64,000 nucleotides of DNA from Escherichia coli (GTDB lineage Bacteria > Pseudomonadota > Gammaproteobacteria > Enterobacterales > Enterobacteriaceae): NCBI RefSeq assembly GCF_013315695.1, contig NZ_CP054353.1. One strand, 5' to 3'. The position numbers are program-made. Positions 22,788 to 25,700 of this stretch are shown here, piece by piece. Each line of letters starts with the position of its first letter. Position 1 is the stretch's first letter.

Positions 22788-25700
22788 TTAAACAAAAAAA
22801 CGAAGCAAGCATACGCCTGATGGCGGTCCAAAAAAAAGAGTCATCTTGCCTAAGAGTATTGGCAGGATGGTGAGATTGAGCGACAATCGAGTTACACCGT
22901 CGCTTAAAGTGACGGCATAATAATAAAAATATGAAATTCCTCTTTGACGGGCCAATAGCGATATTGGCCATTTTTTTAGCGCAACATCTGCGGCAAATTC
23001 CCTTCTCCATACAGGTGTAGTGCACCGACCGCGACCACATATCGCCCCGGCGGCATGGCGCGTAATTTATCCCGCCAGGCGAGATTTCGCTGATGCATCA
23101 GCACATCGTACAGCGACTGACTGAACGTATTGGGCAGCGTTATATCATTATTTTGCGGCGGTGCATTCAGCCACCAGCTCATCATTTGTTGCAGCAACCG
23201 TGCATTGGTGTGCCAGTGGGTCAGCGTATCGTCCAGCAGTGCCAGTCCGTTGTCAGGGAGCTGGAGCAACATGGCAATCTGGTTTTCTGCCCCTTCCAGT
23301 TCAATCACGGGTTTATGTTGTTGCTTCGCCGCCTGCAATAGCTGGTAATCGATACCGTATTCTGCCCGCAGCCCCAGTTTTTGTGCCTGCCTCGCCTGAA
23401 GAACCATCGCGATTTGCCACAGCGGTTGGGTAGAAAAGAGTGAGGTAGAAATGCCCATCTCCTGGCTAATGTGCTGCAGGTTTTGGAGTTGCTCCTCGCT
23501 AATGCGCTCTTCCAGTGCCTCGCAGGCAGGCAAATTGGCAAAAGGCGTATCGCTGGTGGAAACATCCGCCTCGACGATCAGCGCATCGGCGTTTTTGAGC
23601 TTTTTGAGCAAACGGGTGGGCAGGGGAGCCATATCGTGGCTACCCATATGAATACTGCCGAGCAGATGAAAATGGCGATTGCCGGGAAGAGAGATATCGA
23701 TAGCAGGCCAGGTGTAATGATTACCGCGCAGCGCGGCCCAAAGCGTTTTTACCCGGTACAACAGATCCATACGACCTCCCTTTGTGAAATATCATGCTAG
23801 CGCGCGGGGAGGGATGGCGCAAATGGAGTTATGAGGCTTGTTCAGTGGTAGCTTAAATATGATCGAAAAATTGTTTTTGCTTTGAAACGAAAGACTGCAC
23901 GGGTGTTGGTGGCGTCAAAATCGCCGAGGCGTTCCCTGAAGGCCGGGGCAGCCCACATGGATGTGGGCTGAGGGCGCGTTTTACAGGGATAATGAGATGG
24001 ACGCTCCAGATTTTACGGTATCAAAGTACCAGACTGGATCGTTGCAATACGTCCTGAAAAATTAGGAGCGTCCACATGAAAGTATCAACTCTTGGTATCG
24101 ACCTGGCAAAGAACGTTTTTCAGCTTCATGGTGTCGATCATGAAGGCCATACTATTTTGCGTAAAAAGCTCACCCGGGCTAAGTTTGTTCAGTTTGTGAT
24201 TCAACTGGAACCTTGTCTGATTGGCATGGAAGCCTGCTCATCCAGTCATTATTTTGCGCGATTATTCACCCGCTATGGTCATGAGGTAAAACTCATACCT
24301 CCGCAGTATGTGAAGCCTTATGTGAAAACGAACAAGACGGATGCAGCAGATGCTGAAGCAATCTGCGAAGCGGTAACCCGTCCGAATATGCGTTTTGTTC
24401 AGATAAAAACCGAAGAGCAGCAGGCCGTTTTAGCGTTACACACTGAACGGGGAATACTTATCCGTGAGCGGATTGCCTGTGCCAATAGTTTAAGAGCCAC
24501 ACTTGCTGAGTTTGGTATTACGATTGCGGCCGGACAAAGCCATTTAACACGTGAGCTGCCAGCCATTCTGGAGGATGGCGAAAATGGTTTATCTCCCTTT
24601 GTCAGAACCAGCATCTACAGACAGTCTAAACATATCCGGGAACTTGAAGAACAAGTTAAACAGGTAGAAGAAGCTCTGGCCTCCTGGTATAGAACGCAGG
24701 AAGCCTGCCAGAGAATGGCCAAGATCCCGGGGGTTGGCATGCTAACGGCCACTTATGTGGTAGCAGCAGTGGGTAATGCCCGACAATTCAGTACCGCAAA
24801 GCAGTTCGCTTCATGGCTGGGGCTGACACCAAAGGAACATTCCAGCGGCGGGAAACAGCAACTGGGAGGGATCAGCAAACGTGGAGATGGATATTTCCGA
24901 TACCTGCTGGTTCACGGCGCACGCGCACTTACCGCCTGGGTCAACCGAAACGGCGCGGTTGAGGAGAATTCCTGGCTTCAGGGACTCCTTGAGCGGAAGC
25001 ACTACAATGTAGCTGTTGTCGCCATGGCGGCAAAAACAGCGAGGATCATGTGGTCAATGTTGTCACACAATACTGAATATCAACCTCGGCAGCTCGCCTG
25101 ACACAAGGTCAGTCAATCTGACGAGGTGCTGAAAAAAAGTTAACGTCCTGGTAGGTGCAGGTGACTTCAGAAGATGGCAAAACAGGTAAGACCGCAGGCA
25201 GGATACACCGAGAGGTAACAAGGGCAAGTTAGCCCGTAGAGGATGATTGGTACCTGCCTGGCGGATTTCATCATGGTTCGGGATAAAAATCCCATCAGAA
25301 ACCGGATATATGGCTGCACCTACCCGTTTTATTACATAACTGAAGAAAGCATTGCATTCCGGGAGCGTCCATATATGTTACCTCGCGCCCGACCCGGTAG
25401 CCGCAAGGGATAAGCCGAGGGTACCGCGCAGCGGCGATTTTGTTCGCCAGAGCCCGGGGGTGCAGGGGGCGGCGGCGATTGGCCGCCCCCTGCGCGCTCC
25501 TTGCGCCAGTCACTTTATATGGCATGACTCATAAAAGGAGCGCAACAAGAACTGGATCTCACAAACGCATTAAGTAAATACCAATCACTCTTTCGGTTTA
25601 AACCTCAGCAACCGGTTGGCGTTACTCACTACGGTAATCGACGAGAGCGCCATTGCCGCTCCGGCAACCACCGGGTTAAGCAGCGTACCGGTGAACGGCC

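What the first reader, a model, noticed from the sequence alone, without database searches (positions are those of the whole stretch)
25462..25493. Strong 12-bp GC hairpin between the IS110-family element and the copA 3' end
gcagggggcggc-ggcgattg-gccgccccctgc is a perfect 12-bp stem. It lies about 90-120 nt downstream of the copA stop on the minus strand and is not followed by a U-tract on either strand, so it is not a canonical intrinsic terminator. It may be a REP-like structural element, an RNA processing or stability element, or part of the insertion target.
Basis: seen in the sequence. Interest (0 to 1): 0.25.

Follow-up and report, generated by a model that had tools for sequence, protein, structure and literature searches.

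The report
Hairpin core of a TRIP1/RRS repeat
The hairpin is real, but it is the central stem-loop of an already described enterobacterial repeat (TRIP1, also called RRS) that makes the replication machinery leave single-stranded gaps; in this strain the repeat has been split by an RNA-guided insertion sequence.

Summary
The perfect 12-bp stem with an 8-nt loop at 25462-25493 is confirmed and is not chance. It is not a copA terminator, a REP element or part of the IS.

It is the core of a 266-bp TRIP1 repeat (Rudd 1999; Li 2024), here copy "TRIP1e". That copy lies 124 bp from the ybaP start and 38 bp from the copA stop, exactly as published. The same repeat is the Replication Risk Sequence (RRS) of Pham, Cox and Goodman (2023-2026). 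Their "G-quadruplex site", GGGGGTGCAGGGGGCGGCGG, is window 25456-25475 and overlaps the hairpin's 5' arm.

In K-12 this element blocks DNA polymerases and leaves lagging-strand gaps. That this copy does the same is inferred. Its G-rich strand appears to be the lagging-strand template.

An IS1111-type IS (23991-25376) splits the repeat 86 bp left of the hairpin.

Observations I did not find in the papers read:
- The hairpin is kept by compensatory changes across six genera.
- No family member can form a canonical three-tetrad G4.
- The repeat's left half resembles the Rfam TwoAYGGAY motif.
- The IS always sits at one point of this repeat.

Verdict: already known element, low to moderate interest.

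The parts
25462..25493 (.). The finding: a perfect 12-bp GC hairpin with loop GGCGATTG on the plus strand. It is the central stem-loop of the TRIP1e/RRS repeat.
   Evidence: Conserved by compensatory change in the family.
25456..25475 (+). GGGGGTGCAGGGGGCGGCGG, the exact sequence that Pham et al. 2024 call the G-quadruplex-forming, polymerase-blocking site of RRS. It overlaps the hairpin's 5' arm.
   Evidence: Sequence. Motif quoted from PMC11194060.
25494..25546 (+). Terminal stem-loop of the repeat. GCGCTCCTT (25494-25502) pairs with AAGGAGCGC (25535-25543) around a variable AT-rich loop, followed by AAC, the right end of TRIP1e.
   Evidence: This stem covaries: GCGCTCC/GGAGCGC versus CGTTCAC/GTGAACG.
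25377..25546 (+). Right part of TRIP1e (170 bp), ending 38 bp before the copA stop codon.
   Evidence: The distance matches Li et al. 2024.
23895..23990 (+). Left part of TRIP1e (96 bp), starting 124 bp from the ybaP start codon. It contains the hairpin CAGCCCAC-ATGGAT-GTGGGCTG (23949-23970) and the left arm of the second hairpin.
   Evidence: TwoAYGGAY-like architecture on the uninterrupted copy.
23991..25376 (+). IS1111-type member of the IS110 family (1386 bp including one copy of the core AT). Transposase ORF at 24076-25101. Subterminal inverted repeats ATGGACGCTCC and GGAGCGTCCAT. A 275-nt non-coding region lies 3' of the gene. It is inserted in the loop of the second hairpin of TRIP1e.
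   Evidence: Same insertion point at other loci.
25585..28089 (-). copA. Its 3' end faces the repeat.
22976..23770 (-). ybaP. Its start faces the left end of the repeat.

Best explanation
The hairpin is the central stem-loop of a TRIP1 repeat, the same element as RRS (Replication Risk Sequence). This copy is the ybaP-copA copy, TRIP1e.

TRIP1/RRS is a GC-rich intergenic element of about 266 bp found in Enterobacteriaceae. It folds on itself when the duplex is unwound.

Shown by others for the K-12 copies at lysO and dusC:
- When the G-rich strand is the lagging-strand template, the folded element stops the lagging-strand polymerase at exactly this sequence.
- The replisome then re-primes downstream, leaving an ssDNA gap of up to about 2 kb that is loaded with SSB and RecA.

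Shown here:
- This copy carries the whole stop sequence.
- Its G-rich strand is on the window's plus strand, which by KOPS polarity and synteny is the lagging-strand template.
- The stem is maintained by compensatory substitutions across genera, and it is always at least as stable on the G-rich strand.

Inferred:
- This copy triggers gaps in the same way.
- The hairpin, rather than or together with a two-tetrad G-quadruplex, is the blocking structure.
- The block survives the IS insertion that separates the left 96 bp of the repeat from the right 170 bp.
For: Identity:
- nhmmer with K-12 TRIP1a matches the two halves of the window copy at E 1e-43 and 5e-25.
- The distances to ybaP (124 bp) and copA (38 bp) equal those published for TRIP1e.
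- K-12 carries the same hairpin at lysO-aqpZ, yohP-dusC and putP, the TRIP1a, c and b loci.
- RRS is stated to be TRIP1 in PMC11194060.

Function in K-12 (literature):
- Pol I, II and IV stop at the site GGGGGTGCAGGGGGCGGCGG.
- RecA/SSB peaks appear on the lagging strand and depend on the element. Peaks also appear wherever the element is moved.
- In a single-molecule assay, gaps form at essentially every encounter.

This copy:
- The motif is exact at 25456-25475.
- KOPS sites are 5 on plus and 0 on minus. GC skew is +0.009. Gene order and orientation match K-12's right replichore.

Hairpin under selection:
- At least 16 distinct stem variants of 10-14 bp occur in Escherichia, Klebsiella, Kluyvera, Enterobacter, Citrobacter and Pseudocitrobacter.
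- On a structure-aware alignment of 57 members, 11 of 12 pairs show changes on both sides, and 94.2% of cells in that helix are paired. For the 20-pair structure as a whole the figure is 95.2%, against 44-53% when partners are slid.
- The stem is at least as stable on the G-rich strand as on the complement in every variant, because G.T wobbles occur only there.
Against: - No experiment exists on TRIP1e or on an IS-split copy.
- K-12's TRIP1b keeps the hairpin but lacks 125 bp and lies in the opposite orientation. [quoted passage not shown] This suggests the hairpin alone is not sufficient.
- The published strand asymmetry of polymerase blocking is not explained by a palindromic stem, which is nearly the same on both strands (-17.3 versus -16.9 kcal/mol).
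- G-run asymmetry is also conserved. Two-tetrad G4 potential is present on the plus strand in 48 of 57 members and on the minus strand in none. A G4 contribution therefore cannot be excluded.
- Energy models did not settle hairpin versus G4.
- Lagging-strand assignment rests on KOPS and synteny, not on a mapped origin in this genome.
Confidence: 0.7

Rival explanations
1. The active structure is a G-quadruplex formed by GGGGGTGCAGGGGGCGGCGG on the G-rich strand, as the RRS papers propose. On this view the hairpin is incidental or merely competes with it.
For: - The G strand blocks polymerases more strongly than the C strand. In vitro, the C strand on the lagging-strand template blocks about 66% of encounters, against nearly 100% for the G strand.
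- Two-tetrad G-run patterns are conserved on the plus strand only (48 of 57 versus 0 of 57).
- The 5' arm stays purine/G-rich in all variants.
Against: - No member of the family has four runs of G3 or more with loops up to 7 nt (0 of 57). The exact published motif is present in only 29 of 57.
- The G4 and the hairpin use the same bases. With RNA parameters the hairpin wins, -41 versus -29 kcal/mol.
- Compensatory evolution of the 3' arm is not expected if only the G-runs mattered.
- In the text I could search, the G4 assignment rests on a predictor plus the stop position. The terms 'mutated', 'circular dichroism', 'potassium' and 'NMM' do not occur in the 2024 paper.
Confidence: 0.3
2. The element acts as RNA. 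One version is a structured non-coding RNA of the TwoAYGGAY type, with GGA-containing loops that could bind CsrA and with this hairpin as its 3' module. The other version is a REP-like 3' structure that protects or ends the copA transcript.
For: - The left half of an uninterrupted copy aligns over the whole Rfam TwoAYGGAY model at 31.5 bits, E 0.003.
- A type-B relative scores 49.2 bits, above the gathering score of 43.
- The loops CAUGGAUG and ACAGGGAUGU carry the AYGGAY/GGA motif that a published study matched to its CsrA-binding model in TwoAYGGAY.
- G.U wobbles occur only on the plus strand.
- No terminator lies between the copA stop and the repeat, so copA transcripts probably enter it. 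The minus-strand RNA folds with z = -5.6.
Against: - E. coli copies score below Rfam's threshold.
- The hairpin itself lies outside the TwoAYGGAY model.
- No promoter-like site was found for the plus strand.
- No expression data were available.
- The plus strand is also the G-rich DNA strand, so the wobble evidence does not separate RNA from ssDNA.
- The experimentally shown activity is at the DNA level.
Confidence: 0.15
3. The hairpin is part of the recognition site or an end of the IS110-family element.
For: The IS is always found in this repeat family, at the same point and in the same orientation.
Against: - The hairpin is 86 bp from the crossover.
- It is present and identical in IS-free copies, and in K-12, whose three TRIP1 copies are all uninterrupted.
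- Only 179 of 5426 genomes carry the IS, whereas virtually all carry the repeat.
- Candidate guide matches cover only -14..+8.
Confidence: 0.03

Closest known systems
TRIP1 repeat (Rudd 1999; Li et al. 2024, Genes 15:236), type TRIP1e
   Same: Homologous over its full length to K-12 TRIP1a. Same locus and same distances to ybaP and copA. Similar length (266 bp here, 265 bp published). GC-rich, with a strongly folding "double-Y" structure.
   Different: Here it is interrupted by a 1386-bp IS, which that paper does not mention. The paper does not single out the hairpin.
RRS, Replication Risk Sequence (Pham et al. 2023 NAR 51:5527; 2024 NAR 52:6392; Kusi-Appauh et al. 2026 preprint)
   Same: Same repeat family. 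The exact "G4" stop sequence is present. The G-rich strand is apparently on the lagging-strand template.
   Different: The studied RRS are the lysO and dusC copies flanking the Ter domain. This is an extra copy near copA, far from that position, and it is split by an IS. Gap formation is untested here.
TwoAYGGAY RNA motif (Rfam RF01731; Weinberg et al. 2010)
   Same: The repeat's left domain has the same architecture: an outer stem and two hairpins with AYGGAY-type loops. A related type-B element passes Rfam's threshold.
   Different: E. coli copies score 27-31.5 bits against a threshold of 43. The hairpin of the finding lies 3' of the modelled region. TwoAYGGAY is thought of as an RNA, RRS as a DNA structure.
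REP/BIME elements
   Same: Dispersed, palindromic and intergenic, often just downstream of genes. They are targets of IS110-family elements such as IS621.
   Different: Different sequence, much shorter units (about 35 bp), and hundreds of copies. K-12 has REPs at this very locus in place of TRIP1e.
Intrinsic (Rho-independent) terminator
   Same: A GC-rich stem-loop downstream of a gene.
   Different: No U-tract on either strand. The stem belongs to a larger conserved repeat found in many contexts.

Membership tests
TRIP1 / RRS repeat | Sequence homology to K-12 TRIP1a over the whole unit | tested here: met
   nhmmer E 1.3e-43 (right part) and 5e-25 (left part), interrupted only by the IS. Alignment with an IS-free strain.
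TRIP1 / RRS repeat | TRIP1e locus: 124 bp from the ybaP start and 38 bp from the copA stop | tested here: met
   23771-23894 is 124 bp and 25547-25584 is 38 bp. Published values.
TRIP1 / RRS repeat | Presence of the polymerase-stop ("G4") sequence GGGGGTGCAGGGGGCGGCGG | tested here: met
   Exact match at 25456-25475 on the plus strand. Motif.
TRIP1 / RRS repeat | G-rich strand is the lagging-strand template | tested here: inconclusive
   KOPS 5 versus 0, GC skew +0.009, and K-12-like gene order in the right replichore all point that way. The origin and terminus of this genome were not mapped.
TRIP1 / RRS repeat | Triggers lagging-strand ssDNA gaps with RecA/SSB loading | not testable with these tools
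   Needs ssGap-seq or a replication assay. Shown only for the lysO and dusC copies and for transplanted copies.
Intrinsic terminator | Stem-loop immediately followed by a U/T-tract | tested here: not met
   No T-run on either strand. Not reported by the terminator scan.
REP/BIME | Similarity to the REP units that K-12 carries at this locus | tested here: not met
   K-12's ybaQ-copA spacer has three REP-like units. The window sequence is unrelated to them. Megablast matches between the window and K-12-like strains cover only about 16-17% of the 2.1-kb query, annotated under ybaP and copA.
TwoAYGGAY RNA (RF01731) | Score at or above Rfam's gathering threshold (43 bits) | tested here: not met
   E. 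coli copies score 27-31.5 bits. A type-B relative in Pseudocitrobacter scores 49.2 bits. The finding's hairpin lies outside the model.
IS110/IS1111 element (as part of it) | Lies within the IS boundaries defined by comparison with an empty site | tested here: not met
   The IS is 23991-25376. The hairpin starts at 25462 and is present in the empty site.

The most novel reading that the evidence does not exclude
Three linked propositions:
1. The conserved, compensatorily evolving hairpin, not a canonical G-quadruplex, is the structure that makes RRS/TRIP1 stall the lagging-strand polymerase.
2. RRS/TRIP1 is the gammaproteobacterial branch of the long-orphan TwoAYGGAY "RNA" motif, which would then be, at least in part, a single-stranded-DNA element.
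3. An RNA-guided IS1111-family element has evolved to home to one hairpin loop of this element. It sits at the junctions of the 1.3-Mb Ter-spanning inversion previously attributed to TRIP1 itself.
Probability: 0.3. Interest if true: 0.6.

Novelty: already known. Interest (0 to 1): 0.3.

Why it matters
The hairpin is not a new object. It belongs to TRIP1/RRS, whose effect on replication is published.

What matters is what the comparison adds:
- The published mechanism names a G-quadruplex, yet the family keeps a perfect hairpin by compensatory change and never has a canonical G4. That question is directly testable with a few mutants.
- The link to TwoAYGGAY gives an orphan Rfam motif a concrete hypothesis.
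- The IS that homes to the repeat shows that an element reported as conditionally essential can be split in natural strains.
- The same IS sits at the TRIP1a/TRIP1c inversion junctions, so its role in that inversion deserves a look.

Tried and rejected
- **Rfam scan of the window region**: nothing at the hairpin. Only sroB/ChiX at 22894-22977.
- **Terminator and promoter scan**: no terminator for copA and no promoter for the repeat.
- **Literature search for RSA / Box C / BEE95 names**: a wrong lead from memory. The repeat is not RSA or Box C by copy number, and the right name came from a search on the flanking gene names.
- **Protein-coding partner** in longer Kluyvera copies: none. The extra conserved DNA is a second, inverted repeat of a sister subfamily.
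- **Variable loop of the terminal stem as a promoter, or the AAGGAG arm as a sequestered Shine-Dalgarno**: not conserved in the type-B subfamily, so dropped.
- **Phage collection**: no match.
- **G4 versus hairpin by energy model**: inconclusive. ViennaRNA's G4 term is RNA-derived and gives opposite answers with RNA and DNA stacking parameters.
- **MAFFT alignment for covariation**: it mis-registers type-B hairpins by one column. It was replaced by a covariance-model alignment, which leans towards the model structure.
- **Candidate seekRNA guides**: the 9-mer has about a 0.1 chance expectation by my estimate, and about 1.7 such 7-mers are expected, so they remain candidates only.
- **IS-free inversion junctions**: none among the 40 listed of 51 hits. 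11 hits were unlisted and the tool's joining of pieces is imperfect, so absence is not proven.

Full report
**Observation.** The sequence at 25462-25493 is gcagggggcggc-ggcgattg-gccgccccctgc, a perfect 12-bp stem with an 8-nt loop. The pattern occurs once in the window, against 0.00 expected in shuffles. Only two perfect 12-bp hairpins exist in the 64 kb. The other, at 12066, is a textbook terminator with a T-tract after the ORF 10187-12061. copA is 25585..28089 on the minus strand, so the hairpin lies 92-123 nt past its stop. No T-run follows on either strand, and the terminator scan reports nothing there.

**Boundaries of the IS.** I aligned the window with an IS-free strain (NZ_CP076709, L001). 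The junctions are ...TTTTACAGGGAT | AATGAGATGG...CCATATAT | GTTACCTCGCG.... The IS is therefore 23991-25376, 1386 bp including one copy of the core AT.
- It encodes a 341-aa IS110-family transposase (PF01548 plus PF02371; NF033542 at 359 bits).
- It has subterminal inverted repeats and a 275-nt non-coding region 3' of the gene, the IS1111 layout (description of the group).
- The hairpin starts 86 bp to the right of the IS and is identical in the empty site, so it is chromosomal.

**The hairpin belongs to a repeat.**
- K-12 has no such sequence at copA. It has ybaQ and three REP units there.
- Nevertheless a 121-nt query around the hairpin matches 5425 of 5426 complete E. coli genomes, with a median of three places per genome.
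- An exact-stem scan of one genome per species found it in Escherichia, Kluyvera, Enterobacter and Pseudocitrobacter, often at contig ends.
- Alignment shows a unit of about 270-300 bp.
- K-12 has full copies at lysO-aqpZ and yohP-dusC, and an internally deleted copy after putP.

**Identity from the literature.** A search on the flanking gene names found Li et al. 2024 (PMC10888264). This is the TRIP1 repeat of Rudd 1999.
- K-12 copies a, b and c are at exactly those loci.
- TRIP1e is a copy present in 3% of genomes, 124 bp from the ybaP start and 38 bp from the copA stop. The window gives the same two distances: 23771-23894 and 25547-25584.
- TRIP1e here is therefore 23895-23990 plus 25377-25546.

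The same repeat is the Replication Risk Sequence of Pham, Cox, Goodman and colleagues.
- The lysO and dusC copies give the two strongest RecA/SSB-ssDNA peaks in the genome, on the lagging strand. The peaks disappear when the element is deleted and appear wherever it is transplanted.
- In vitro, Pol I, II and IV stop at a site the authors call a G-quadruplex, 5'-GGGGGTGCAGGGGGCGGCGG-3'.
- That sequence is window 25456-25475. Bases 25462-25473 are the 5' arm of the finding's hairpin.
- None of the RRS or TRIP1 papers I could search uses the word hairpin for it.

**Orientation.** The G-rich strand is the window's plus strand. KOPS motifs are 5 on plus and 0 on minus, and GC skew is weakly positive. 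Gene order and orientation match K-12's right replichore. The plus strand is therefore most likely the lagging-strand template, the active polarity of RRS. This is inferred, not measured.

- They fall into the TRIP1/RRS type (A) and a sister type (B). Type B has a different terminal stem (CGTTCAC...GTGAACG instead of GCGCTCC...GGAGCGC).
- Type B is often paired head-to-head with type A in Kluyvera, Enterobacter and Pseudocitrobacter. Citrobacter has an inverted pair of two type-B-like copies.
- At the position of the finding, every member has a 10-14-bp stem, but the stems differ. Examples:
  - ACAGAGGGCGGC/GCCGCCCTCTGT (K. aerogenes)
  - TGTAAAGGGCGT/ACGCCCTTTACA and TGCAAGGGAGGC/GCCTCCCTTGCA (Citrobacter)
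  - TGCCAGGGTGGT/GCCACCCTGGCA (E. coli yegH-asmA copy)
  - GCAAAGGGGAGCG/CGCTCCCCTTTGC (Kluyvera type B)
- On the structure-aware alignment, 11 of the 12 pairs show changes on both sides, and 94.2% of cells in that helix are paired. For the 20-pair structure as a whole the figure is 95.2%, against 44-53% with partners slid by 1-3 columns. That alignment was fitted to the structure, so the percentage leans upward. The perfect complementarity of unrelated stems does not depend on the alignment.
- In all 16 variants the stem is at least as stable on the G-rich strand, because G.T wobbles occur only there.
- One K. pneumoniae copy has turned the region into a 25-bp perfect palindrome. I read this as template switching on a hairpin, based on general knowledge of quasipalindrome mutation.

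**Hairpin or G-quadruplex?**
- The exact published motif is present in 29 of 57 members.
- No member, on either strand, has four G-runs of three or more with loops up to 7 nt.
- A two-tetrad pattern is possible on the plus strand in 48 of 57 members and on the minus strand in none.
- So a plus-strand G-run bias is conserved as well as the hairpin, and the two structures compete for the same bases.
- Energy models do not settle it. With RNA parameters the hairpin wins (-41 versus -29 kcal/mol). With DNA stacking plus an RNA-derived G4 term, a mixed structure wins.
- The published strand asymmetry of blocking argues that the palindromic stem is not the whole story.
- TRIP1b keeps the hairpin, yet the genome-wide study reports two prominent peaks, at lysO and dusC. 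This argues that the hairpin alone is not sufficient.
- The 2024 paper's text lacks the terms 'mutated', 'circular dichroism', 'potassium' and 'NMM'.
- I therefore commit to this view: the stop is made by the folded G-rich strand with this hairpin as its core. The share contributed by G-G pairing remains open.

**RNA-level readings.**
- On an uninterrupted copy, the left half of the repeat aligns to the full Rfam TwoAYGGAY model: an outer stem and hairpins with loops CAUGGAUG and ACAGGGAUGU. The score is 31.5 bits, below the gathering score of 43.
- A type-B copy in Pseudocitrobacter scores 49.2 bits, above threshold.
- TwoAYGGAY is an orphan motif from Weinberg 2010, proposed to bind CsrA.
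- None of the 12 papers in the library that contain the word TwoAYGGAY appears to concern RRS or TRIP1 (7 of the 12 were listed).
- The finding's hairpin lies 3' of that domain.
- No terminator separates copA from the repeat, and the minus-strand RNA folds with z = -5.6. A REP-like 3' barrier for copA mRNA is therefore possible but untested.

**The IS and the repeat.**
- The IS is present in 179 of 5426 genomes.
- At every locus examined (dusC/aqpZ, lysO/yohP, yegH/asmA and copA) it sits at the same point, ACAGGGAT|GTTACC. This is the loop of the second AYGGAY-type hairpin.
- Its 3' non-coding region contains GAGGTAACA, complementary to the target top strand at -1..+8. Downstream of that lies CGTTTTA, identical to the target top strand at -14..-8.
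- That order matches the one described for IS1111 seekRNAs. These short matches are only candidates.
- 84 genomes have lysO-IS-yohP. This is the TRIP1a/TRIP1c inversion junction that Li et al. describe in SMS-3-5 and IAI39.
- All 40 listed hits to the IS-less junction sequence carry the IS.
- Whether the IS caused the inversion or merely marks one lineage cannot be told from this.

**Verdict.** The element is already known. Novelty class: already known. Interest is low to moderate, carried by the side results above.

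Noticed in passing
window 23991-25376; L036, L037, L038, L039: An IS1111-type IS (341-aa transposase) is present in 179 of 5426 E. coli genomes. At every locus examined it is inserted at the same point of the TRIP1/RRS repeat (ACAGGGAT|GTTACC), in one orientation. Candidate guide segments are at 25212-25220 and 25325-25331.
   Followed up: partly
L037 (IAI39), L036 (same genome as the best window match): The 1.3-Mb inversion between TRIP1a (lysO-aqpZ) and TRIP1c (yohP-dusC), attributed in the literature to TRIP1, has this IS at its junction in 84 genomes. No IS-free junction appeared among the 40 hits listed.
   Followed up: partly
L001 1816-1955; L015 2218-2281; window 23916-23990 plus 25377-25441: The left half of TRIP1/RRS has the architecture of the orphan Rfam motif TwoAYGGAY. 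E. coli copies score 31.5 bits and a type-B relative 49.2 bits, against a threshold of 43. No listed paper in the library links the two.
   Followed up: partly
L010 5853-6172, L015 2164-2494, L016, L017, L019, L026, L027, L044: A sister subfamily (type B) has the same overall architecture but different stems. In Kluyvera, Enterobacter and Pseudocitrobacter it is usually adjacent to a type-A copy in inverted orientation. In Citrobacter the inverted pair consists of two type-B-like copies.
   Followed up: partly
L038 (E. coli FDAARGOS_497, yegH-asmA spacer): A sixth TRIP1-like locus, not among the five types of Li et al. It has a type-A left domain joined to a type-B-like right module. It carries the IS and lies next to a truncated RelE/ParE toxin gene.
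   Followed up: no
L049 566-672 (K. pneumoniae): In one copy the hairpin has become a 25-bp perfect palindrome (GGAGCCCGGGGGTACAGGGGGCGGC...). This looks like a template-switch correction of a quasipalindrome.
   Followed up: no
window 23771-25584 versus L004 (K-12): This strain lacks ybaQ (a HigA-type antitoxin, which in other strains has a RelE/ParE toxin partner) and the three REP units that K-12 has between ybaP and copA. The divergence extends into the last codons of copA.
   Followed up: partly
L046 (E. coli STEC310, putP locus): Some strains have a full-length TRIP1 downstream of putP, where K-12's TRIP1b has a 125-bp internal deletion. The deletion endpoints share CCGGG..CAG microhomology.
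   Followed up: no
window 22894-22977 (+): The small RNA sroB/ChiX matches Rfam at 81.1 bits over its full length.
   Followed up: no
window 12066-12095 (+): The only other perfect 12-bp hairpin in the window. It is a canonical intrinsic terminator with a T-tract just after the 624-aa ORF 10187-12061.
   Followed up: no
window 32375-50734 (+): A single 6119-aa open reading frame. Not examined.
   Followed up: no
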